This document shows positions 11,277-46,466 of a DNA stretch of 64,000 nt, one piece after another. The stretch lies in IMG/VR virus record IMGVR_UViG_3300031418_000007. One strand, written 5' to 3'. Under the pieces are notes generated by a model that was given only the letters and a program-made list of their open reading frames with translations, did not search any database and had not been told where the DNA came from. Made by a program: the position numbers and the translations under genes. Source of the DNA: a virus (taxonomy: Duplodnaviria; Caudoviricetes). Each line of letters starts with the position of its first letter. Position 1 is the first letter of the stretch.

Positions 11277-12143
11277 TTACACGCTGAATGGATAGACAAT
11301 TGGATCGTGGTGACGATACCCAATCAACTCTACGTGATCCAACGTCATCTTGTTGACCACATCATCCCAGGTTTTGATTTCAGGACTGATGATCAGAGAC
11401 GGTGGAAGTTTAGGTTCACGATCAAGTTGGCCTTTTTCCATCAACACAGGATACTGGTTGTCATAGATGTGGGCGTTCACGATCTTGAGATTGGCTTTAC
11501 ACGGACGCGTGCCGGTGATATGCGCCATCAGTTGCAGGAAGAAAGCAACCTGGACGATGTTCGCTGCACCGCCGAGTAAGATGTCCTGACTGCGTTGGAA
11601 TGAGTTTAAATACAGGTCGTTGCCCAGCAAAGAGAACTGATGCGTGTGCATGCATGGGCGCAGGCAACCCAATTCGAATTCACCCGGGTTCCAGAAGGTA
11701 ACGATCTCACCCCGGTTATCTTTACCTGCCTTGAGGTCCTCATAAACCTGACGGAACAGGTCAATAGAAGAACCATCATGCTTTGGCCATTCGGTAGCAA
11801 CAGCGCCGTACACTTTGCCCATGTGGTCAGTGCCGATACGATGGCGGTTCTTTAACCACGCTTCGTTTTCGTTGGCATTAGCATCCCAGGTCTTGGCACC
11901 CAGCGCACGAAAAGCACCTGCGTTAGTAAAGCCCTTGTAGTAGCCCAGGGATTCAGCGATCGCCATCTTCCAGTTAAACTTACGGGTGGTTGGTACAGGC
12001 AGTTCACCGCGCCGCATATCGATATCGATGTCTGCGTTGATCACGGTGAGACATTGCGTGCCGGTGCGTGGGTTATCGACCCAAACCCCTTCGTCAACAG
12101 TGCGTTGGATTAGATCAAGGTATTGCCGTTCTGTACTTTTCAT
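11277..12143 (-). CDS. thyA: Thymidylate synthase
   Basis: RTGT, LRPCMH (catalytic Cys), QRSQDILLG, N, and AHIY motifs. Confidence 0.95.
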   Translation of the reverse strand: MKSTERQYLDLIQRTVDEGVWVDNPRTGTQCLTVINADIDIDMRRGELPVPTTRKFNWKMAIAESLGYYKGFTNAGAFRALGAKTWDANANENEAWLKNRHRIGTDHMGKVYGAVATEWPKHDGSSIDLFRQVYEDLKAGKDNRGEIVTFWNPGEFELGCLRPCMHTHQFSLLGNDLYLNSFQRSQDILLGGAANIVQVAFFLQLMAHITGTRPCKANLKIVNAHIYDNQYPVLMEKGQLDREPKLPPSLIISPEIKTWDDVVNKMTLDHVELIGYRHHDPIVYPFSV

Positions 12144-12595
12144 TATTTATCCGCCAGCTTGGCCCATTCATCGGTCATGGCTTTAACACCTTCGCCATGA
12201 CCATTAAAGATTTCATCGTCACTCAGCGTGAGTTCCTGAGTAATCGGCGCTAATGCATCGAAATAGGGGGTGAGTTCTTGCCGTCTGTGTGGGTTGTTTT
12301 CCACCCAATTAAAAATACCTTTCAGTTCAGCATTGAACCCCATGTTGATGCCTTTGTTTTCTGCATCAATCTCGATATCGAAACCCGCCTTGCAAAAAGC
12401 GTACATCGTAAAGAGGTCGGGGTAATAACGGAACAAGAGTTCCAAGCTGCGAAACATAGCGGGGCGAAGTTCAGCCTGGACAGCCGCGATCATCTGTTCT
12501 TCACTGAGGTAAGTTTCACCGACCATCTTTTCAGAGGCAAAATTAAAGCGACGCATAATCGCCTCTTTTACATTCTCTACGTCTTTATTCGACAT
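12143..12595 (-). CDS. Hypothetical protein
   Basis: Start MSNKDVE after GAGG; its stop overlaps the thyA start. Confidence 0.6.
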   Translation of the reverse strand: MSNKDVENVKEAIMRRFNFASEKMVGETYLSEEQMIAAVQAELRPAMFRSLELLFRYYPDLFTMYAFCKAGFDIEIDAENKGINMGFNAELKGIFNWVENNPHRRQELTPYFDALAPITQELTLSDDEIFNGHGEGVKAMTDEWAKLADK

Positions 12596-13160
12596 CGTGA
12601 TCAAACCTCGTTTGGTAATCGACATAAGAAACGGTAGATGGAATAGCGACTTCGGTCACCACGTTACAACAAACCGGATCTTCAACCTTTTCTTTATGGA
12701 TAGCGCGCGCTTCTTCTTCGGAATGCGCAAACACCATTTCAACCTTTTCACCCACCACTACCGGAATAAATAAGAAAAGCTTTAGTGGCTCTTTCATTTT
12801 CGATAACGCCAGAAGGGCATTGGCTTTGGCTTCAGCCGGCGCATTAACGTGTCGAGAGGTGAAATCGACAGCCTTGTTACCCGCCCACTTTTTATTGTGT
12901 TCCATGCTGGCAGCAACAACTTCACCGTGGACGATGGTAACAACCAATAACTTCATGCTGCCTTTAGAACAGTACTCAAGCGCCTTGGGATCAACCATGG
13001 GGAGTTTCCCCAGACCGCGACGACTCTCATTGATGCAGTTACCGTAACCGTCTACAAACATCACGCCGTCTGCTTTCTGAGTCGGGTGACGACCACTGAG
13101 GATTAATTCAACATCAGAACACATCTCAGCTTTTAATTCATCTAGTGTTTTCTCGGACAT
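12585..13160 (-). CDS. Hypothetical protein
   Basis: 191-aa ORF with AGGAAG RBS, overlapping its neighbours. Confidence 0.6.
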   Translation of the reverse strand: MSEKTLDELKAEMCSDVELILSGRHPTQKADGVMFVDGYGNCINESRRGLGKLPMVDPKALEYCSKGSMKLLVVTIVHGEVVAASMEHNKKWAGNKAVDFTSRHVNAPAEAKANALLALSKMKEPLKLFLFIPVVVGEKVEMVFAHSEEEARAIHKEKVEDPVCCNVVTEVAIPSTVSYVDYQTRFDHDVE

Positions 13161-13390
13161 AATGACTTCCTGAAGGTTTTAATAAAGATACTTTCTTCCA
13201 GACACCATTGTTCGCCAGCTTTGGCATCTTTGGTATCCACCAGGTTCGTGTACATCACAAAACGAGAGGTGCAGTTCAACCCGTAACGCATGAAGTCGAT
13301 AAGCATAAACGGCAAGCCCGATGCGCTTAAATAGATTTCACCAATTACCGGTTCGTAGATACATTGTTCTTCAGCGATGGCGTTCGGCAT
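13142..13390 (-). CDS. Stand-alone DUF1653-like protein
   Basis: Start MPNAIAE after GAGGG; PVIGEIY..SG..F...VMYTNL...QWCLEESIFIKTF. Confidence 0.5.
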   Translation of the reverse strand: MPNAIAEEQCIYEPVIGEIYLSASGLPFMLIDFMRYGLNCTSRFVMYTNLVDTKDAKAGEQWCLEESIFIKTFRKSLCPRKH

Positions 13391-21369: not shown

Positions 21370-21826
21370 CTTGTAATCTGTAGTTAACGTCACTGTCCTT
21401 GTAATCACGAGCTTTCTTGGCAATGGCCTGCCGCTCAAAGACACGGTAACGTAAACCTGCTTTAACCGCTTCCGGTCTTTGCAAGAATTCCATAATCGTG
21501 ATGTTGTGTTTCTTTAGATCGGTTTCAATCAGTGCCGAGAACATGCGGTCCCAATCATTGCCGTCATGAAAGAACAGAGTGATATTTGTTGGCAGTTTAA
21601 CAAACCCGCGCAGTTTACCGAAATCAGAGGTTACACAGAAGGGAATGTTGTTTTTACCGAGACACACAAAGCGCATAGTGCCTGTGCCGTCATCACCCTG
21701 ATAACAGAACCCGTGAGAGATCTGCTTACGATGAGCTACCACGCAGTCATTGAAGTCGTGGTAATAGGCGCTACGGGGTTTGAGCGTATCCAGAGACACC
21801 ACATGAGTATTATCAATGATGATCAT
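21350..21826 (-). CDS. Hypothetical protein
   Basis: 158-aa ORF coupled to the upstream stop (ATGA overlap). Confidence 0.6.
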   Translation of the reverse strand: MIIIDNTHVVSLDTLKPRSAYYHDFNDCVVAHRKQISHGFCYQGDDGTGTMRFVCLGKNNIPFCVTSDFGKLRGFVKLPTNITLFFHDGNDWDRMFSALIETDLKKHNITIMEFLQRPEAVKAGLRYRVFERQAIAKKARDYKDSDVNYRLQDEDKED

Positions 21827-22326
21827 CTTACTTTCCTGATAAGCTTAAGGGATTTAGCATGGAAGACATCGTAATCAGTGGTGACCATGAAGTTATCAAT
21901 AAAAACCATAGCCTTATAGATTTCTTCCGCAGTTAATTTAAGTGAGTCGTAGAAGCGATATGACCCATTAGGTGAGATATAGATGTCGTGCTCTGCGTCA
22001 CGGAAAATAACCTTTTCGTTCTCCCGCACAACGGTGTAGAACGAACGACGTGTTACCAAAACCAGCTTAAAGTCTTGATCGAAATCCAGCGCGGGTTCAT
22101 CGTCACTTAACTTTCCGCTTTCATAACGCCTTATATACAATAACACCGGGTCGAGGATTTCAGGCACCACGTCATTGTCAAACACGTAGGCGATGTCATT
22201 CTCGGGAGTAACGTTGATTTTGGCACCGATGTGTTCGCGGAACTTATTGATGCCTGCGATGTTTTGTTTGTGCACAACCAGGTGGTCAGCGACCAGCGTG
22301 CCTGCACGATAAACGATCAAAGTCAT
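21823..22326 (-). CDS. Ntn-hydrolase/HslV-proteasome-like protein
   Basis: Start MTLIVYRAGTLVAD after GGAGG; resembles the MTTIAY..G.LAAD start and TAEEA...D end of phage HslV-like peptidases. Confidence 0.5.
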   Translation of the reverse strand: MTLIVYRAGTLVADHLVVHKQNIAGINKFREHIGAKINVTPENDIAYVFDNDVVPEILDPVLLYIRRYESGKLSDDEPALDFDQDFKLVLVTRRSFYTVVRENEKVIFRDAEHDIYISPNGSYRFYDSLKLTAEEIYKAMVFIDNFMVTTDYDVFHAKSLKLIRKVR

Positions 22327-24776: not shown

Positions 24777-25703
24777 TTACAGGTAAGCAGCTAGTTCAGC
24801 GGTAGTCGCCGGAATAGCATTGGTGTTGTTATCGATGATGGTCTGAATCTCATCGGATGCCGATTCAATGATGTCACCACCAAAGAAACGGTTCTCGAGA
24901 TATTCGCCCAGCATCACACCACCCAGGCCCAGACCTGTACCCGCAGAAGCTGCCAGTGCGGTTTTCACCAGCTCTGGTAACTTGCGTACTGCGTCTACTT
25001 TGGTGAACAGGTATTCTGCACCGAAGTAAGAAGCAGCGGTACCGGTTAAGCCACCTGCAATTGCGCCCACAGTGAACTTCTTGTTGGCAACGACGTTGAA
25101 GCCCGCGGCTGCCAGTGCAGTACCGGCGGCGATGAACTTAGGCTGTAACCAACCTTTGCTCGCTTCATCCAGACCAATCAGAGACTGTTCAATCTCTTTG
25201 GCGATGGCATCGTTTGCCTGCTCAGCTGCTTCTTTTGGATCAACGCCTTTTTCTACAGCAGTGTCAAATGCTTTGACGGCGCTGCGGTTAACGTTCAGCA
25301 GAGTCATTTCTTCACCGGACAGTGTTTCGCCACGCTTGATGCGCGCTTCCAGTGTGTTCATGGCTTTACGTTGAACTTCGATCGGTGTAGCAACACCGCT
25401 TTCCAACAGCACTGGTGTGGTCAGGTCGTAGTCCTTCAGTTCGTTCACGGTGTAATGCAGCCCGGTACGTTTATTTACCAGGCCATTGAACTCACCGTAC
25501 TGCGCTGGCTCGATCATAGTCTGCAGCTCATTGGCATACAGATGTTTGATGTAGTCAGGGTGAGCGTTCTGCTCACGCAGGTGCTTGATTGTTTCCACCA
25601 GTGAATGTGCAGCAATCTGAGCAGTTGAACGCTGTGGGATAACTTCGTGTACAGCAGCATCAGTGTTGTTGTTGTTAGCAGTGTTCTGTGATTTGTTTGA
25701 CAT
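24777..25703 (-). CDS. Early protein with C-terminal Gly/Ala-rich (glycine-zipper-like) hydrophobic helices
   Basis: Start MSNKSQN at 25703; segments FIAAGTALAAAG, VGAIAGGLTGTAASYFG and ALAASAGTGLGLGGVMLG. Confidence 0.65.
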   Translation of the reverse strand: MSNKSQNTANNNNTDAAVHEVIPQRSTAQIAAHSLVETIKHLREQNAHPDYIKHLYANELQTMIEPAQYGEFNGLVNKRTGLHYTVNELKDYDLTTPVLLESGVATPIEVQRKAMNTLEARIKRGETLSGEEMTLLNVNRSAVKAFDTAVEKGVDPKEAAEQANDAIAKEIEQSLIGLDEASKGWLQPKFIAAGTALAAAGFNVVANKKFTVGAIAGGLTGTAASYFGAEYLFTKVDAVRKLPELVKTALAASAGTGLGLGGVMLGEYLENRFFGGDIIESASDEIQTIIDNNTNAIPATTAELAAYL

Positions 25704-25773: not shown

Positions 25774-25782
25774 GTAATATAG
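25774..25782 (-). promoter_or_regulatory. Putative early promoter core CTATATTAC
   Basis: Follows the terminator at 25834; the predicted transcript begins with a hairpin (ggtgtataaacat/atgttttacatcc). Confidence 0.75.
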
Positions 25783-25833: not shown

Positions 25834-25863
25834 ATAACCCTATCCCGCAAAGGATAGGGTTAT
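25834..25863 (-). terminator. Intrinsic terminator
   Basis: ataaccctatcc-cgcaa-aggatagggttat. Confidence 0.75.
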
Positions 25864-25867
25864 AGAG

Positions 25868-26593
25868 TTATTTGATTAGGTTTTGGAAGCGTGTAAATAG
25901 AATACGGAAGTACAGTTCTGCCGGCACGTTGTCTTGTGCACCCAGCGAGAAAGCATCATTAACTTCTACCAATGTCCATTTACCATCCAGCTTTGCCACG
26001 TCGAATGAACCGTGGGGTTGACCGAACTCAGTTAATAGATTGGCAATCTCCCGATTCATGTTCGTTAACTCAGGATCTTTAACCGAGCAGTGGATGTCAA
26101 ACAGTTCTCGATCCAGCTCAACGTAATAGTAGACGCGGTTCTCCTCTGTGAATTCCACAGGCTTACAAACGTGGATCTCGGTATTCTGAGACACGCCTTG
26201 TAAACGGAAGTCTTCCAGATCCTTACAGACAAACCCAGGGAAACGCTTAACTTCTTTAGCCGGCTTAATGAACTTGGGTAAGTGTTCCGGCTTGAGATCA
26301 GCCAAGGTAAGTTGAGTGACCTGACGACGCAGATAGCCCAGCACACAATACGGGTAATCGTAAGGCAGTGGGAGTTCTTTGTCGTACTTGCGTAACACTT
26401 CACGCATAAAGCCGATGGAACCCGACGCAAACACAAAGCCATCAGGAAGTTCTAACTTCTTAACCTGCTTCTTACCCACGGGTACGATTTGAATACCGGT
26501 TTTGAAGTTCGCTTCCAGGAAGGTTTTGATTAACTCTTCCTCAGGTCCATAAACACCTGTACCTCTTTGTTCTAACCAAAAGACATGCTGCAC
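25868..26593 (-). CDS. ATP-grasp protein, R2K clade (DUF4343-like)
   Basis: GSIGF, DYP..L..YL.R.V, FIKP...KRF.GFV, E.RVY, FDVA...W.LVEVNDAFSLG. Confidence 0.8.
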   Translation of the reverse strand: MQHVFWLEQRGTGVYGPEEELIKTFLEANFKTGIQIVPVGKKQVKKLELPDGFVFASGSIGFMREVLRKYDKELPLPYDYPYCVLGYLRRQVTQLTLADLKPEHLPKFIKPAKEVKRFPGFVCKDLEDFRLQGVSQNTEIHVCKPVEFTEENRVYYYVELDRELFDIHCSVKDPELTNMNREIANLLTEFGQPHGSFDVAKLDGKWTLVEVNDAFSLGAQDNVPAELYFRILFTRFQNLIK

Positions 26594-27168
26594 AGTGATT
26601 CCCCCTGTTTGATTTTTTCGACGATAAGACCCGGGTCAATAGGACCGAGGTGTGTTCGGGTTGGATTAGATAAGCCACGTTCAATGATCGTGCGCGATTC
26701 CCCTCGCTGCGCATATTTCTCGATTTTGATCATTCCCCCGTAACGATGGTGATATTTCCGCATTGACAAAATATAGTGGAATCCATCATGTTCGAATTCC
26801 TGCTTAAAGCGACCATCTATGAAACAGGCTGGACTGCTCTTGGCTTTAAATTCTTCTTCTTCATCACCGTACTCTTGAAGATGAACAGAAATCCCCAGCG
26901 TTGCCAGCGTGCGTTCGATGCCGCGGAAAAGCGTAAGGTGTTCGAAGTTGCTTTCATCATAAGGCAGTGCGCGTAATGCCATCTGTCGGTAGATTTCCGC
27001 TAATTCAATCAGGCCAACATCAAGGTGCTCTGGTTCCATTGAGAAAACAGTTGTTCCCAACTTTACGGATAACAGACCTGAAGCTGAGCCAGACTGGAAG
27101 ATAAAAGAGTGGTCGAGTTCGCCAGTTTTGATACTCCATTTGCCGCGGTGTAATTCAGTGATGATCAT
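26572..27168 (-). CDS. Hypothetical protein
   Basis: 198 aa, AAGGA RBS, overlaps the ATP-grasp start. Confidence 0.6.
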   Translation of the reverse strand: MIITELHRGKWSIKTGELDHSFIFQSGSASGLLSVKLGTTVFSMEPEHLDVGLIELAEIYRQMALRALPYDESNFEHLTLFRGIERTLATLGISVHLQEYGDEEEEFKAKSSPACFIDGRFKQEFEHDGFHYILSMRKYHHRYGGMIKIEKYAQRGESRTIIERGLSNPTRTHLGPIDPGLIVEKIKQGESLCSMSFG

Positions 27169-27229
27169 AATGATTCCTTGAAGTTGCGTGCATAATCCTT
27201 ACACCTGATAAAGGGTGTAAGGAATGAAG

Positions 27230-27661
27230 TTATTGACAGTTTCTAACGGTTTCGTTGGAGAAGGTCAGGGTTTGTCCTAACCAATGATCCAGTCCTGCTT
27301 TCACGACTTCTAACTCATAGCCGTCGGGTTTGTACACCAAACTCATATGTAACAGCAGTGAGCCGAAAGAGTGTTCGTAACCGGCTTCACGCAGGCGGGT
27401 AAATTCGCGCTGTAAGCCGATGGAGTGCAGTTCTGCTACGATGGCATCACCCAATGGCTTAAAGCCCAGCACAGTGGCTGTGAACAACGCATCGGGGTTA
27501 ATGACACAACGGGTTTCTTCGCATTCACGATCATCAAACATCATCGTGACGTGGAACGGAAATTCAGATACCGGATGCAAACCCAGTTCAGCAATATCAC
27601 GACTGAGTTTACGTTCTTCTTCTTTCACCAGGTTAACGGAGATATAACCGAGTTTGGTCAT
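27230..27661 (-). CDS. 2H phosphoesterase, T4 gp57B/Acb1 (anti-CBASS)-like
   Basis: Two Hx(T/S) motifs (FHVTMMF, LHMSLVY); GYISV start; L...F..LR.AGYEHSF..L.HMSL.Y parallels the Acb1 segment L..RH...RALGATHDF..Y.PHITLSY. Confidence 0.75.
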   Translation of the reverse strand: MTKLGYISVNLVKEEERKLSRDIAELGLHPVSEFPFHVTMMFDDRECEETRCVINPDALFTATVLGFKPLGDAIVAELHSIGLQREFTRLREAGYEHSFGSLLLHMSLVYKPDGYELEVVKAGLDHWLGQTLTFSNETVRNCQ

Positions 27662-28196
27662 GTTGGTTCCTTAAGTGCGTAGTGAATCGTTTCATAGCAT
27701 CCCTACGTCGGTTCCAACTGCGGTACTTACTGCGACGTTGAAGAAACTTGCGTAACCCATTAGGTAATGTTAAACCGTGTGGGGTCAACAGGTGTTCGAC
27801 AAAGATGGCTCGATCACGACCGTTAAAATAATAACCCTGTAAATCACAAATTGTTTTAATCGCACTGCCCTGATAAAAAGGCGGTTCGTCATCACCCATG
27901 TCATTGAGTTGTAGTGCCTTGACACCTTGACGACTGATGCCGTTGGGGAAATACGCGTCAAAGATAAGGCCGTTCTCTTCTACCCATACGTGCCAACCTC
28001 CGGCACAGATGGTGGGTGACAGTCCTTGCGCTTTGGCTAACATATAGACCAGCGTTGCCATGACGTAGCAGTCGCCGTTATTGATTTTTGTTTCCAGCGA
28101 CAGTTTGCTTTTGGGCTCTTGCTTGTTGTACAGCGTACGAAAGTGGGGCAGCATACTGCGAATGATGTCAGCATACTGCGCCCGTTTGTTATCCAT
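27633..28196 (-). CDS. Papain/transglutaminase-like Cys-His-Asp protein
   Basis: INNGDCYVMA, WHVWV, IFDAY; the ATGGATAA overlap with the RNase H stop fixes the start at 28196. Confidence 0.55.
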   Translation of the reverse strand: MDNKRAQYADIIRSMLPHFRTLYNKQEPKSKLSLETKINNGDCYVMATLVYMLAKAQGLSPTICAGGWHVWVEENGLIFDAYFPNGISRQGVKALQLNDMGDDEPPFYQGSAIKTICDLQGYYFNGRDRAIFVEHLLTPHGLTLPNGLRKFLQRRSKYRSWNRRRDAMKRFTTHLRNQHDQTRLYLR

Positions 28197-28680
28197 TGGT
28201 GACATATCCAACATCTGCTTCCGTGGGGTTCTTGAGGGCTTCGCCAGCGGCTTCATCTGCCATGTCATTATACTTATCTCCAGAATGTCCCTTGACCTTG
28301 AAGAAGCGCACCTTGTTCTCTTTCAACAATGCATGCATCTCTTTCCAGAGGTCGAGGTTCTTGATGGGTTTCTCAATACCGGTTTTCCAATCCGTGTTGA
28401 TCCACTTCTTCCTTGCCCACGCCCAGACCCAGGCAGAACAACCCTGCTTGACATAGTTGGAGTCGAGATAGACATCAAAGGTTTTGTTAGGACCGAACTC
28501 TTTCAACAGTGCAATCAGTGCCATCATTTCCATTCGGTTGTTGGTGGTTAAATGGTAGCCTTTTGATAAAGTGAGTACTTCTTCACTGCCTTCAATCGGG
28601 AGTATGACCCCGTAACCACCTGGACCTGGATTGGGGTTTGCACCGCCATCCGTATAGGCCACTATAATCTTTTCATCCAC
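28189..28680 (-). CDS. rnhA: Ribonuclease HI
   Basis: YTDGG..PNPGPGG.G, TTNNRMEM.A, DS.YV..G..W..W...W, KN.DLW, VKGHSG...ND.AD. Confidence 0.97.
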   Translation of the reverse strand: MDEKIIVAYTDGGANPNPGPGGYGVILPIEGSEEVLTLSKGYHLTTNNRMEMMALIALLKEFGPNKTFDVYLDSNYVKQGCSAWVWAWARKKWINTDWKTGIEKPIKNLDLWKEMHALLKENKVRFFKVKGHSGDKYNDMADEAAGEALKNPTEADVGYVTNG

Positions 28681-28695
28681 GTTTACTCACCTTAA

Positions 28696-28719
28696 TAAAA
28701 GGGGGAGGTTTCCCTCCCC
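28696..28719 (-). terminator. Stem-loop with T-tract
   Basis: ggggagg-gaaa-cctcccc-cttttatt. Confidence 0.65.
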
Positions 28720-28727
28720 AATGTGTG

Positions 28728-30236
28728 TTACCAGAAATTCGAATACCCTACGGTTTCCAGTTTCTTAACTGCGGCCACAGAACGGGCAATTTCGATACGA
28801 TCACGTAGCGTGTTGGTTACGTGACGGGTTACCTGTGCACTGACTTCGCTGACACCGAATGAGGATTCGATAGCGCGACGCACGTACGCTTCCATGTTGT
28901 CGTCCAGTTCAGCATACTGCATGCCGGAATGACGGAAACGGAACGGAGGACAGCCACGACGATCATCTTCAATCAGCGCAGAACGTTTTGGCTGTTTCGC
29001 GACTTCATAATGCGAGCTGCCGTATTCGTCATTGCCGTCGATGTTCAACCAGAAAGATTCACCGCCGTTCAGCAGAGAAATTCTCAGGTTACCGTTGACC
29101 GGAATCACCGTGATGTCAAAGATGCTGTTAACTTCAACGCAGCCTTTAGACGTCAGGTAAGTACGGTCGGTTTGGTGACACGCTGTTTTGTTGATACGGA
29201 TGCTGGTTGTCGCATTAATGTGCAGTCCAGTTAAACGACTGCCTTCAATGCTTACCAACTTGGACGTGAACTCGCTCTCTTTGATTTCAGAGCGCTTAAC
29301 GTTAATTGTTGATTCGCCAAAGCGCACATCTTTCAACTGCGACTTGCTGATAAGGTGACGACCAAACGGCTTTTCACTGCCGTAGGTGGTAACCTGCACC
29401 AGGGTACTGTGGCTAACAAACGCATTTTTCAGACAGCACTGTGCGAAGTCGTCAGAAATAACCCGCGAGCTCTGCACGATGACGTTATTCCATTTCTGGT
29501 TCACGATCAAGTTGTCACCCGCAGCCACGACGTTGGTCAGCGCAGACTCTGCCACTACCATCACGCCAAAACGACGCTGTAACGCCGGGCCGGTTTTTTC
29601 CCAATGGCTAGGTGCTTTGATATCTTCGGTCAACGTGACTTTACTGCCGTGCGCCAGAATCAGCACCTGATAGATACGGTTATCGATCAGTTTGCTACGC
29701 AGCGGTGAAGTCAGTTCGTCGTGGTGGTTATGCATGTCGTCTTGCTTTGGTACGACCGCATAGACATAGACATCCCACAGACGTTCTTCTTTAGATACCT
29801 TTGCCCAGACCTGGTTGCGGCTAAAACTGTAGTCAAAACCGCGCTCTTCGAAATAGACACGGGAGATAGGTGCCTTGTAACCTTTCACCACCGGCTGGAT
29901 AGTTTCACCCGCGATAATCAGTTCACTGCCCGCTACGGCATCCGGTTGGTTACCCCACCCATGGTAGTAGCTGCGCATTTCAGCGGTAGCCACCTTTTCC
30001 ACTTCCAGCGTGTTCAGCGCCTGGATCTCGAGGTTTACTTCCTGAGTTTGCACAGCCGGTCCCGGGATTTCGATGCCCATGTAGCTTTTCTTCTGCACGG
30101 GCGCAGCAACTTCTTCTTTGATTTCAGCTACCACTGTGGCTGGCGCTTCAACGTTTACCGTAACAGCATTTTCAGCGCCTGCATTTTCCACGGGTGCTGG
30201 CTCAACGACTTTCTTCTTGTCCTGTGCTTTTGACAT
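28728..30236 (-). CDS. Hypothetical protein with acidic disordered N-terminus and possible beta-solenoid core
   Basis: Repeating (S/N)x(L/I/V) short-strand pattern (SALTNV, SRVISD, STLVQV, SQLKDV, SEIKES, SRLTGL). Confidence 0.55.
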   Translation of the reverse strand: MSKAQDKKKVVEPAPVENAGAENAVTVNVEAPATVVAEIKEEVAAPVQKKSYMGIEIPGPAVQTQEVNLEIQALNTLEVEKVATAEMRSYYHGWGNQPDAVAGSELIIAGETIQPVVKGYKAPISRVYFEERGFDYSFSRNQVWAKVSKEERLWDVYVYAVVPKQDDMHNHHDELTSPLRSKLIDNRIYQVLILAHGSKVTLTEDIKAPSHWEKTGPALQRRFGVMVVAESALTNVVAAGDNLIVNQKWNNVIVQSSRVISDDFAQCCLKNAFVSHSTLVQVTTYGSEKPFGRHLISKSQLKDVRFGESTINVKRSEIKESEFTSKLVSIEGSRLTGLHINATTSIRINKTACHQTDRTYLTSKGCVEVNSIFDITVIPVNGNLRISLLNGGESFWLNIDGNDEYGSSHYEVAKQPKRSALIEDDRRGCPPFRFRHSGMQYAELDDNMEAYVRRAIESSFGVSEVSAQVTRHVTNTLRDRIEIARSVAAVKKLETVGYSNFW

Positions 30237-34152: not shown

Positions 34153-34175
34153 ATAATGTAGGCCTAAAATTAATT
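34153..34175. repeat. Imperfect direct repeat 1 flanking the HNH gene (promoter-like)
   Basis: ataatgtaggcctaaaattaatt versus ataatgtaggcctgaattaatt at 35247-35268; the minus strand carries CTACATTAT. Confidence 0.85.
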
Positions 34176-40039: not shown

Positions 40040-42913
40040 TTATGTATCGCGAATAACGTCTTTATAACGGAAGAAGTTGGTTGCACCCAATTCAGTGCCG
40101 TCATTGACAACAAACGGAATGGTAGCGCCCTTACGCGTGCTGCTGATCAGATGTTTGTCTAACACGATAAAGGACCGTGTATAACGCACACCCGTGCCGT
40201 CACTGTCGTAACCAATCATGATGGCGTTGTTATCAGGCTTCTGTTCTTGAGTGTAGCGCACCAGTTCAATAACCCCGGTGTTCTCCTCAAGGTAGAAATA
40301 ACTTGGCCATGTCGAGTAAGCCAGCTCCTGGGTTTCATCCACCGAAATACCCACGCCGTTGATAACACAGCGGTAGCCTTCGGGAATAATCACCAGCTTC
40401 TGATTAGCCAACTGATACGGTTTAAACAGAATCGTTGCGTCACGCGCGCTTCCCAATACCACATCGGTGTTGATCCCTGCGGTGCACTGGAACATACCAA
40501 TACGCGGAACCATCGTTAATGGATAGTGGTCATCACTGACGTCAAAGAACTCGGTACCTGCAAAGGTTTTGGCCGGAACGTTGTTCAGCGGAGTCAATGT
40601 CGGTGCTGCTGCCAGGAAGTTATCAGTGGTAAAGGTAATGTCCCCACTCATGCTTTCCCACGGACGGTTCAGACCAAACACCCACTGGTTGTCACTGAGC
40701 TTGTAGGCCAGCAAGTCACTGTGGGAAGAATGCAAACCGTCGTTGCTCTGACTGGTGCGTTTGCCTTTGTTAGGGGTCGTTGCTTTACTCACCACCGATA
40801 ACACGGTATCCGTTTTCAGTCCCAGCGTCATTACACCGTTGGACAGGGTATACGGCACCACACAGGCATGCACGACCGCACAACCGTCACTCCACCAACA
40901 CAGTGCACGCAAGCCACCCACAATCATTGCCCCCATACTGCGAGCACGAGGATACTGTTCCGGTACGCCGTTGTACATCTGCTTAACCGCAGCAGACGCT
41001 TCTGCTTCTGAGGCTTTTAAACGCATCACGATCAGCGAATTAGGCGACAAGCTTACGTCTGCACCCAGCACGACTGCGCCACCGGAATACTGGAAGCTGT
41101 CAGAACCCTTGAACCCGTTCAGGCTGGTAAAGCTCAATGCACTTACCGTTACCCCGCCCGACACAGCTGTAACCGACGTCAGTGAGTTAGGCAGCTTGGT
41201 GGTCAGATCGCGCTCAGTGATGAGGTCAGGACGCGTAATGCCGTAAGTCTTGGTATTGGCATCGTACTGTGTGTTGCTACCGGTTGCCCACTGAAGTTCT
41301 TTGTACTTATAACCAAAGCGATCCACAGCCAAGCAATAGCTCAGGTAGGTGATCTGGTTAGCGTCTTGTGAAATTGGCAGAATACGCTCAGGCAATTCCC
41401 CCAGCGAGAAGTGACGCGTGGGAACAAAGGTCTGGGTAATGCTGTCTTTCACTGGACGATACAGTGCGGGGTTCTCTAGCAGTGGCACCACACCCTTCAT
41501 GTCGGTAGGCGAGACTTTGATACGCAGACAGGTCGGTGTTGTATAACCATTGAGGATCAAACCATTGGTGTTGATCACTCCTGGACACTTCACCAAGTTC
41601 AACAGGTTAGTAGGATCATTGTCCACCAACCACTTGCACTTCGCCAGATCAGCTTCTGTGGTGATGCTGTCTTTGCTATAACCTTTCAGCATATCAATAG
41701 CACCGGTATCCGCAATAACCAGCTTGCCCGGGTGAACCGATTCCGTGAAGTTAAAGATCTTGTTAAAGGTCTTACCCCCAATGGTTACCGTAACCGGCAT
41801 GGCGATGTTCATCAAGAACTCAAGGTTCAGATAACGCCAATCTGCACTGATCGTGGGTTGTTCACCGGCTTTTAATGCAGAGACAACCGAGACACCCGCA
41901 CCCAACGTAAAGAAGTCATTCAGTGACATGGTCCGCGTTTTGTTGATGCTGTCGTTAACGTTGTTCATGTTAACGGTGTTGTACGTGGCCTTGTAACTGG
42001 AGTTGACGATCTGCGTCAGCGTTGGATTAGACTCAGGGTCGTTGACACCAAAGAAGTAGTGCCCCAACGTTAAGGTGGTTCCCGTATAGCTTGCGCTTAA
42101 CAGGCAACCTTTGTGGGAGATATCACCAAACGTCGAACTCAACACCACAAAGAAGTTACCTGAGCCCGGTATCGAACTGTTGTAGTTGTAGATGCCTTTG
42201 TTCGCCAACGGACGGAAGATCCCGATACGCCCCAGATTGTCAATCGCCCCCTTCATGTTCCAGCCCGATCCCCAATAACGAGAAGCAATCTGACGTTCCT
42301 CGTTCAAGCCAATGCTGGCGCCCATTTTCACCGTATCAGAGTAATAGAGTGAATAGGGGCCGGCGTTAGCCGTGGGGTACTGTGGTGAGGCGATAACACG
42401 GTCACCGTTCATGATCAGAGTAACTGGCCCGCGTTGAAAGAACAGCGCGTTGCCCGGGTCTTTCTCTGCGCGATCAAACTGGTCGATGTGGTGCAGGGCA
42501 GCAAACGGCATTCGCACGTTTTGCTGGAAATCCTGCGCGTTAAAGCCATTGACCGATTGGGTGATGGCTGCCTTCATACCCGCTGGATTAACAAACGCAT
42601 CATCCACAAAGTTCAAGTGATCCTGCACCGTGGCGCTACGAAAGTTATCGACTTTCTCTAACTGTACAGTGGTTGAGGTTTCCCCGTGTACTGGGCCCGT
42701 TAACGCAATATGGGCATCCACCGGTACGCCCACCGCGGCAACGAAGTTACCCACTGCTTGGGCGATATACGTGAGGTTGGCACTGGTTTGCGCATCGTTG
42801 CTGTCTTGCGCCTGTTCCACCTTGCGACGGAGATTGTTAAGGCTCGACAACAGGGAACCGTATCGCGGTTCTGGATCTGCAATAACCGGACGTTCCCCAC
42901 CAATGATTTTCAT
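40040..42913 (-). CDS. Large tail fibre/virion protein (phiKZ gp145/146-like family)
   Basis: H.....VHGET...V.L.KVDNF..AT motif; C-terminal S.TRKG..IP shared with its neighbours. Confidence 0.7.
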   Translation of the reverse strand: MKIIGGERPVIADPEPRYGSLLSSLNNLRRKVEQAQDSNDAQTSANLTYIAQAVGNFVAAVGVPVDAHIALTGPVHGETSTTVQLEKVDNFRSATVQDHLNFVDDAFVNPAGMKAAITQSVNGFNAQDFQQNVRMPFAALHHIDQFDRAEKDPGNALFFQRGPVTLIMNGDRVIASPQYPTANAGPYSLYYSDTVKMGASIGLNEERQIASRYWGSGWNMKGAIDNLGRIGIFRPLANKGIYNYNSSIPGSGNFFVVLSSTFGDISHKGCLLSASYTGTTLTLGHYFFGVNDPESNPTLTQIVNSSYKATYNTVNMNNVNDSINKTRTMSLNDFFTLGAGVSVVSALKAGEQPTISADWRYLNLEFLMNIAMPVTVTIGGKTFNKIFNFTESVHPGKLVIADTGAIDMLKGYSKDSITTEADLAKCKWLVDNDPTNLLNLVKCPGVINTNGLILNGYTTPTCLRIKVSPTDMKGVVPLLENPALYRPVKDSITQTFVPTRHFSLGELPERILPISQDANQITYLSYCLAVDRFGYKYKELQWATGSNTQYDANTKTYGITRPDLITERDLTTKLPNSLTSVTAVSGGVTVSALSFTSLNGFKGSDSFQYSGGAVVLGADVSLSPNSLIVMRLKASEAEASAAVKQMYNGVPEQYPRARSMGAMIVGGLRALCWWSDGCAVVHACVVPYTLSNGVMTLGLKTDTVLSVVSKATTPNKGKRTSQSNDGLHSSHSDLLAYKLSDNQWVFGLNRPWESMSGDITFTTDNFLAAAPTLTPLNNVPAKTFAGTEFFDVSDDHYPLTMVPRIGMFQCTAGINTDVVLGSARDATILFKPYQLANQKLVIIPEGYRCVINGVGISVDETQELAYSTWPSYFYLEENTGVIELVRYTQEQKPDNNAIMIGYDSDGTGVRYTRSFIVLDKHLISSTRKGATIPFVVNDGTELGATNFFRYKDVIRDT

Positions 42914-42924
42914 GAGAACTCCTT

Positions 42925-42946
42925 GTGGGGAGGTTGCCCTCCCCGA
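42925..42946 (-). repeat. Intergenic hairpin-RBS junction repeat
   Basis: ggggagggcaacctcccc-acaaggagttctcATG, near-identical to the junction at 46431-46477. Confidence 0.7.
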
Positions 42947-46443: not shown

Positions 46444-46466
46444 GGGGGAGAGTTGTCCCCTCCCCG
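46444..46466 (-). repeat. Intergenic hairpin-RBS junction repeat
   Basis: ggggaggggacaactctccccc-aggagttttcATG. Confidence 0.7.

What the first reader, a model, noticed from the sequence alone, without database searches (positions are those of the whole stretch)
25868..28680. Coupled operon RNase HI - papain-like - Acb1-like - unknown - R2K ATP-grasp: possible tag/untag counter-defence system
Seen: five co-oriented genes between two terminators, with overlapping stop/start junctions (8, 29 and 22 nt) and one internal hairpin (about 27197-27222). They pair a predicted peptide ligase (R2K ATP-grasp) with a predicted Cys-His-Asp peptidase/transglutaminase around a cyclic-nucleotide phosphodiesterase. 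Established: R2K ATP-grasps are predicted peptide ligases enriched in conflict contexts, and several bacterial defences use protein conjugation. Inference: a phage-encoded reversible protein-modification module acting with Acb1 against host immunity. I know of no description of this combination.
Basis: partly seen in the sequence, partly recalled or inferred. Interest (0 to 1): 0.65.

Follow-up and report, generated by a model that had tools for sequence, protein, structure and literature searches.

The report
Co-inherited accessory enzymes in jumbo phage
Five neighbouring genes of a giant phage are real and include three interesting enzymes, but relatives keep, lose and reshuffle them separately, so they look like independent tools in one long transcript and not a single protein tag-and-untag system.

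Summary
The five genes, overlaps and hairpins are present, in an EL/RisingSun-like jumbo phage. The labels hold:
- RNase HI.
- A papain/transglutaminase-fold protein with invariant Cys43-His69-Asp80.
- An Acb1-family 2H phosphodiesterase that lacks Acb1's Trp lid.
- An orphan protein.
- An R2K.2 ATP-grasp with intact catalytic motifs.

The tag/untag system is not supported. Overlaps and hairpins are routine in this genome (15 of 63 junctions overlap), and the transcript probably starts about 5.5 kb further upstream. The block is inherited within one uncultured clade, as are its neighbours. Of 8 lineages, R2K is intact in 5, frameshifted in 1 and missing from the locus in 2. Its order also swaps with the orphan. 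The papain-like gene keeps its triad and its evolutionary rate where R2K is gone. Outside the clade, 3 of 5 R2K-bearing jumbo phages lack this papain family and 2 carry it 11-75 kb away; about 62 of 64 papain-bearing phage records have no R2K match.

R2K and 2H enzymes in jumbo phages are already reported. The scan noted the same block in a related genome (e1-5357225). Best reading: independent, vertically co-inherited accessory enzymes.

The parts
28702..28719 (-). G/C hairpin 22 nt before the RNase HI start; probably an internal or leaky element, not the 5' boundary of a five-gene operon
   Evidence: Terminator-like, but z -0.8. Near-identical hairpins precede the RBS at the 42913/42954 and 46433/46475 junctions. 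No promoter-like motif lies between it and the start.
28189..28680 (-). RNase HI, core replication gene of phiKZ/EL-like phages
   Evidence: PF00075 119.6 bits; syntenic in EL and RisingSun; dN/dS 0.05-0.10
27633..28196 (-). Papain/transglutaminase-fold protein (phrog_6870 family), C43-H69-D80; start may be 28196, 28205 or 28214
   Evidence: Triad invariant in 22 homologues. AF2 pLDDT 91. Best folds: protein glutaminase Z 6.7, NAT 6.2, LapG 5.8. phrog_6870 E 9.5e-9. dN/dS 0.07-0.10.
27230..27661 (-). Acb1-family 2H phosphodiesterase (HVT/HMS), without the C-terminal Trp lid of T4/FBB1 Acb1
   Evidence: PF23474 27.1 bits vs cut-off 27; orthologues 33.5-50.5. Fold hits 9q2y Z 13.7 and 7t27 Z 12.0. 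Alignment to T4 gp57B.
27196..27223 (-). Hairpin right after the Acb1-like stop, positionally conserved out to EL and RisingSun; likely the ancestral 3' end or stabiliser of the RNase HI...Acb1 segment
26572..27168 (-). Clade-restricted orphan, about 190 aa, fast-evolving, motif CFxxGxF; mobile in position
   Evidence: No family. Homologues in L010, L021, L022, L025, and about 4 kb away in L023. None in EL, RisingSun, Miami or Noxifer.
25868..26593 (-). R2K.2 family ATP-grasp, K110, K116, D198, E210-x-N212 intact
   Evidence: PF18299 77.4 bits vs 26.2; invariant motifs; dN/dS 0.05-0.09; clade copies monophyletic, support 0.975
25834..25863 (-). Strong hairpin, likely terminator; followed by a TATATTAC motif (25774-25781) for the next gene
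   Evidence: z -5.6

Best explanation
This is the 3' half of a long co-oriented transcript. It probably runs from the TACATTAT motif at 34160 through transglycosylase, HAD-like gene, NAD+ ligase, two unknowns and RNase HI to the terminator at 25863. RNase HI and the 2H/Acb1-like gene are old residents of this slot in EL-like phages. The ancestor of one uncultured clade added three unrelated accessory genes, which have since been inherited with their neighbours and lost or shuffled one at a time. Each enzyme most likely acts alone. RNase HI removes RNA primers (established for the family). The 2H enzyme hydrolyses cyclic phosphates: CBASS-type signals or 2',3'-cyclic ends (inferred). The papain-fold protein is a thiol acyl-enzyme hydrolase, by fold most like Gln deamidases, acting on a host or phage protein (inferred). 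The R2K enzyme uses ATP to ligate an amino acid or amine to a protein, or acts as an ATP-driven chaperone like its relative CDC123 (inferred). It is the most dispensable member. Shown: genes, motifs, folds, selection, distribution. Inferred: transcript extent, all substrates, independence of action.
For: Overlaps and hairpins are at background level. No promoter-like motif lies between 34160 and 25781. EL has RNase H-DHH-Acb1 and RisingSun has RNase H-6 genes-DHFR-Acb1; neither genome has papain or R2K. In the clade R2K is absent from the locus in L010 and L023, frameshifted in L022, and swaps order with the orphan; L048 has an extra gene between papain and Acb1. Papain triad and rate are unchanged without R2K, 3.04 vs 3.22. 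DT01, FLC9 and Noxifer have R2K but no papain-family or Acb1 gene; AH06 and YC1 carry the papain gene 75 and 11 kb away. OBP, Miami and Moabite have papain but no R2K. Flanking genes are just as syntenic.
Against: Within the clade, papain and an intact R2K share the locus in 5 lineages down to 35% and 25% identity, and R2K is never seen there without the papain gene. L010 and L023 are partial contigs (54 and 28.5 kb) that could not be searched whole, so R2K may have moved. The L022 frameshift rests on one assembly. There are no expression data.
Confidence: 0.76

Rival explanations
1. Writer/eraser pair: R2K tags a host immunity or translation protein and the papain-fold enzyme removes the tag, alongside Acb1.
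For: Both enzymes are catalytically intact and under purifying selection. They share the locus in 5 clade lineages, and loss runs only in the permitted direction, writer lost and eraser kept. Ligase-plus-hydrolase operons have been proposed elsewhere (PMC4431377, PMC6376114).
Against: No relaxation of the papain gene after R2K loss. No linkage outside the clade. The genes are never adjacent, and a conserved hairpin lies between them. The nearest folds are deamidases and acyltransferases, not isopeptidases. No modifier gene is present. The one biochemically studied R2K member I found, CDC123, is shown to be an ATPase chaperone (PMC12860950).
Confidence: 0.07
2. R2K and the orphan form the real two-gene unit, the orphan being substrate, adaptor or modifier.
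For: They are adjacent with overlapping or near-touching ends in both orders (orphan-R2K in the window group; R2K-orphan in L021, L022, L028), both behind the conserved hairpin.
Against: The orphan persists without R2K at the locus (L010, L023). R2K occurs without it in the L048 contig and in Noxifer, and tblastn finds it in no GenBank phage.
Confidence: 0.08
3. Anbu-like three-enzyme system, with the Thr-initial, Ntn-like gene at 21823-22326 as the third part (idea from e1-5357225).
For: The N-terminus MTLIVY is conserved in all 6 clade loci checked and resembles HslV-family starts. Noxifer has an HslV-family gene 4 kb from its R2K.
Against: The gene lies 3.5 kb away beyond terminator-like hairpins and TATATTAC motifs. 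It has no Pfam or NCBIfam hit. It is kept where R2K is missing, and in five Miami-like phages with no R2K match. There is no alpha-E gene, and R2K is not the glutathione-synthetase-like ligase of Anbu operons.
Confidence: 0.04
4. Separate question about one gene: the 2H protein is not an anti-CBASS enzyme but a 2',3'-cyclic-phosphate (RNA end or ADP-ribose cyclic phosphate) hydrolase.
For: It lacks the W147 lid and the W74 loop, with Arg in the E141 region (features from PMC9117128). It is kept like a core gene in 88 phage records. Jumbo-phage 2H enzymes were predicted to have this role (PMC7824862).
Against: The best sequence and fold matches are Acb1 structures, above all other 2H enzymes. 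Y12, F107 and the His tetrad equivalents are kept.
Confidence: 0.4

Closest known systems
R2K.2 (DUF4343) ATP-grasp family (Burroughs 2015, PMC4431377); R2K in jumbo phages (Iyer 2021, PMC7824862)
   Same: Family score, both lysines, Asp and ExN; sporadic in phages; predicted host-protein modifier.
   Different: The reported partners are GNATs, other R2Ks and ADP-ribosylglycohydrolase. No papain or peptidase partner is mentioned there (0 occurrences). No ligase activity has been shown for any member that I could find.
Acb1 / T4 gp57B (Hobbs 2022, PMC9117128; PDB 7T26/7T27, 9Q2G/9Q2Y)
   Same: Compact 2H fold, His tetrad, Y12 and F107 equivalents, Pfam Acb1 over cut-off.
   Different: 15-22% identity; second motif HxS; no Trp lid; W74 loop shortened; activity untested.
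Protein glutaminase / Tox-PL / phage YunG-like papain-fold proteins; phrog_6870 (OBP gp078, AH06 gp123, Miami gp165, Moabite gp302)
   Same: Helix-borne Cys, then His and Asp on adjacent strands; INxGDC motif shared with phrog_6870 members.
   Different: Below the cut-off of every Pfam family; Z only 5-6.7; no member characterised; neighbours differ in every genus.
Anbu operon (ATP-grasp, alpha-E, transglutaminase, Anbu; PMC6376114)
   Same: An ATP-grasp gene and a transglutaminase-like gene in one region; tagging hypothesised.
   Different: Different ATP-grasp clade, no alpha-E gene, no fixed order, no adjacent Ntn gene. The Anbu tagging hypothesis is itself unconfirmed.
EL gp122-127 / RisingSun gp108-122 region
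   Same: Ligase ... RNase HI ... Acb1-like, hairpin, then the homologue of the 24777-25703 gene.
   Different: The slot holds a DHH phosphoesterase (EL) or six unknowns plus DHFR (RisingSun) instead.

Membership tests
R2K.2 ATP-grasp | Profile score over the curated cut-off | tested here: met
   PF18299 77.4 vs 26.2 bits
R2K.2 ATP-grasp | Strand-2 Lys plus a second Lys in the following loop; Asp; ExN (not ExGD of R2K.3) | tested here: met
   K110, K116, D198, E210, N212 invariant in 9 sequences (definition)
R2K.2 ATP-grasp | Peptide-ligase activity (predicted only) | not testable with these tools
   CDC123 shown to be an ATPase
Acb1 | 2H fold with HxT/HxT tetrad | tested here: met
   H37-x-T39 and H105-x-S107; Z 13.7 and 12.0 to Acb1 structures
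Acb1 | Pfam PF23474 cut-off | tested here: met
   27.1 vs 27, marginal; orthologues 33.5-50.5
Acb1 | Stacking residues Y12 and F107 | tested here: met
   Y6 and F99 align
Acb1 | C-terminal lid 145-152 with W147 | tested here: not met
   The chain ends at residue 143 with no Trp after the last strand in any aligned clade member
Acb1 | W74 and adenine-reading E141 | tested here: inconclusive
   Five-residue gap at W74 and conserved R140 near E141, by sequence alignment only
Acb1 | Cleaves cyclic di- and trinucleotides | not testable with these tools
   needs assay
Papain/transglutaminase-like superfamily | Conserved Cys-His-Asp | tested here: met
   Only three invariant columns in 22 sequences: C43, H69, D80
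Papain/transglutaminase-like superfamily | Core fold | tested here: met
   All top-ranked structures belong to the superfamily, best Z 6.7, rmsd 4.6, 121 aligned; middling Z
Papain/transglutaminase-like superfamily | Triad geometry formed in 3D | tested here: inconclusive
Tox-PL-2 (PF15643) | Curated cut-off | tested here: not met
   16.4 vs 25 bits
Phage_YunG-like (PF24591) | Family profile match | tested here: inconclusive
   Atlas features 0.92; weak HMM hits in 2 of 22 homologues only
RNase HI | PF00075 and acidic catalytic residues | tested here: met
   119.6 bits; the four acidic motifs are visible
Anbu operon | Four genes in fixed order: GS-like ATP-grasp, alpha-E, transglutaminase, Anbu | tested here: not met
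   No alpha-E or Anbu family hit; order varies
Ubiquitin-like conjugation systems (CBASS Cap2/Cap3, Bil) | E1/E2, JAB and modifier genes | tested here: not met
   No such family among the five genes in Pfam, NCBIfam or PADLOC

The most novel reading that the evidence does not exclude
In this one clade, R2K and the papain-fold enzyme are a phage-encoded, ubiquitin-independent writer/eraser pair for a host protein, with the orphan as adaptor or modifier. The eraser also has a second job, which would explain why it survives loss of the writer unchanged.
Probability: 0.07. Interest if true: 0.75.

Novelty: new member of a known kind. Interest (0 to 1): 0.2.

Why it matters
As a system it matters little: the evidence points to co-inherited neighbours. 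The separate parts keep some value. The R2K.2 enzyme is an intact member of a family whose predicted ligase activity seems untested. The papain-fold protein belongs to an uncharacterised family in at least 64 jumbo-phage records with a strictly kept triad. The lid-less Acb1 relative could test whether nucleus-forming EL-like phages degrade CBASS signals. If the writer/eraser reading were true, it would be a phage-encoded reversible peptide tag of a kind I found no report of.

Tried and rejected
- Complex prediction of R2K with the orphan: no verdict (score 0.06, mark 0.32). Not used as evidence either way.
- The search for related loci with the divergent alignments A2 and A4 failed for lack of conserved stretches.
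- Foldseek against PDB gave no match at E <= 0.001 for the papain model. Single-sequence PDB search of the Acb1-like protein gave only chance hits. The R2K profile found no solved structure.
- The orphan gave nothing usable in Pfam, PHROGs, NCBIfam, PADLOC or Atlas.
- Paper searches for YunG and BCSR5 found nothing relevant. RisingSun gp120 was not found in the text of its proteomics paper.
- I considered a programmed frameshift for the split R2K of L022 (lead e1-371793) and rejected it as unlikely. The break is an apparent 8-nt deletion inside the two-lysine loop, so even a shifted product would lack 2-3 residues there.
- GC and GC3 of the five genes do not mark a recent insertion.

Full report
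Setting. The window belongs to a 109-kb virus record. Identical proteins occur on a 224-kb contig. RNase H and Acb1-like hits are best in Pseudomonas phage EL and Erwinia phage RisingSun, so this is an EL/RisingSun-like jumbo phage of an uncultured clade.

Observation. The five minus-strand ORFs, the three overlaps and the three hairpins are there. They are ordinary for this genome. Among 63 junctions, 15 overlap and 35 have gaps of 15 nt or less; 16 of 25 longer gaps carry a hairpin, and a run of four consecutive overlaps occurs at 12143-13390. The 22-nt overlap is derived from a 4-nt overlap in close relatives. The downstream hairpin is strong and is followed by TATATTAC, the phiKZ-type early promoter motif (from my own knowledge), at 25774-25781. 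The upstream hairpin resembles those before the RBS of genes at 42913 and 46433 and leaves 22 nt before the RNase HI start. The nearest promoter-like motif upstream is TACATTAT at 34160. I infer that the five genes are the 3' half of an 8.3-kb unit that includes the ligase. This is not shown by RNA data.

The genes. RNase HI: PF00075, present in all group 1 jumbo phages for primer removal (PMC7824862). Papain-like: C43, H69 and D80 are the only invariant residues of 22 homologues. The model is confident. Its best structural matches are protein glutaminase (Z 6.7), arylamine N-acetyltransferase, LapG, SseI and other papain/transglutaminase folds. It belongs to phrog_6870, with structural relatives in Moabite and FBKp24. 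2H protein: Acb1 family by Pfam (marginal here, clear in orthologues), by PDB profile search and by fold (9q2y Z 13.7, 7t27 Z 12.0, next 2H enzyme 10.1). Against the features in PMC9117128 it keeps the His tetrad (second motif HxS) and the Y12 and F107 equivalents, but has no W147 lid and a shortened W74 loop. Orphan: no family, clade-restricted. R2K: PF18299 77 bits with K110, K116, D198 and E210xN212, hence R2K.2. All five are under purifying selection, dN/dS 0.05-0.2.

Co-conservation inside the clade. Eight lineages have the whole slot:
- Window, L011 group and L018 group: RNaseH-papain-Acb1-orphan-R2K.
- L021/L028 (L028 is a complete 231-kb genome): RNaseH-papain-Acb1-R2K-orphan.
- L022: the same, with R2K split by a frameshift in the two-lysine loop.
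- L048: RNaseH-papain-X-Acb1-R2K, no orphan in the contig.
- L010: no R2K at the locus.
- L023: no R2K at the locus, orphan 4 kb downstream.
 The clade's R2K proteins are monophyletic (0.975) and occur on both sides of the tree, so R2K was probably acquired once and then lost or broken three times independently. The papain gene keeps N-G-D-C, H and D in all of them. Its branch length relative to RNase H plus Acb1 is 3.04 in the R2K-less lineages against 3.22 in the others, so its constraint does not depend on R2K at this locus. Flanking genes (ligase, 502-aa, 308-aa, 157-aa) are equally syntenic, so linkage alone says nothing about coupling. Caveats: R2K never occurs without the papain gene in the clade, which a writer/eraser pair would also predict; L010 and L023 are partial contigs; L022 is a single assembly; the rate test has few branches.

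Outside the clade. EL and RisingSun have the RNase H ... Acb1 slot with other cargo and have neither papain nor R2K (positive controls). Five GenBank jumbo phages carry a related R2K, none with any of the four neighbours nearby. DT01, FLC9 and Noxifer have no papain-family or Acb1 gene. AH06 has two papain copies about 75 kb from R2K. YC1 has one 11 kb away and its Acb1 elsewhere. The papain family is found in 64 phage records, of which only AH06 and YC1 appear among the 10 R2K records. OBP, Miami and Moabite were checked by profile and have no R2K. More distant papain-like proteins could be missed by these profiles.

Mechanism. Most likely each enzyme works alone (0.76): primer removal; cyclic-phosphate hydrolysis (anti-CBASS about 0.6, RNA or NAD-derived cyclic ends about 0.4); thiol-dependent deamidation or cleavage of an unknown protein; and ATP-dependent amide ligation or chaperoning by R2K. 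Ligation is a prediction (PMC4431377), and the R2K member CDC123 has been shown to be an ATPase in eIF2 assembly (PMC12860950). The hairpin after Acb1, conserved in position out to EL and RisingSun, probably marks the older end of the segment, behind which the orphan and R2K were added. Rivals: writer/eraser pair 0.07, R2K-orphan pair 0.08, Anbu-like trio with the gene at 21823-22326 0.04.

Comparison and novelty. R2K enzymes and 2H phosphoesterases in jumbo phages are already described, with predicted roles in host-protein modification and counter-nucleotide defence or RNA repair (PMC7824862). The block fails the defining features of the Anbu operon and of E1/E2/JAB systems. I found no paper on this gene combination, but it does not behave like a system. 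Verdict: new members of known families in a clade-specific gene run; interest 0.2.

Noticed in passing
window 21823-22326 (-): Gene beginning MTLIVY, an Ntn/HslV-like start conserved in all 6 clade loci checked and with homologues in Miami-like phages; phrog_36648, no Pfam hit.
   Followed up: partly
L022 7020-7746: R2K gene split by an apparent 8-nt deletion in the two-lysine loop; pseudogene or assembly artefact.
   Followed up: partly
window 27196-27223; L001 11783-11820; L002 6427-6470: A hairpin directly after the Acb1-like stop is kept in position, with unrelated sequence, across EL-like phages; in L021, L022 and L028 it abuts the next RBS.
   Followed up: partly
window 28702-28719, about 42925-42942 and 46445-46464: Near-identical GGGGAGGG-loop-CCTCCCC hairpins sit just before ribosome-binding sites of co-oriented genes; possibly transcript-stabilising or processing elements.
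   Followed up: no
window 24777-25703 (-): Gly/Ala-rich C-terminal membrane-like protein, homologous to RisingSun gp122 and EL gp127; a conserved downstream anchor of the variable slot with its own TATATTAC motif.
   Followed up: partly
window 28728-30236 (-): 502-aa orphan upstream of RNase HI evolves fast (42-50% identity, dN/dS about 0.33) where neighbours keep 80-95%; weakly related to EL gp123.
   Followed up: no
L048 2705-3094: 129-aa gene inserted between papain-like and Acb1-like genes, GNAT-like by eye; no NCBIfam hit and no homologue in the other loci.
   Followed up: partly
L050 93-2197: A distant papain-family gene directly follows a cREC_REC gene and an AcrVA2-like gene in another phage contig, a hint of a conflict role for the family.
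   Followed up: no
L044 882-1607 and 7866-8420: Erwinia phage AH06 carries two paralogues of the papain-like family 7 kb apart.
   Followed up: no
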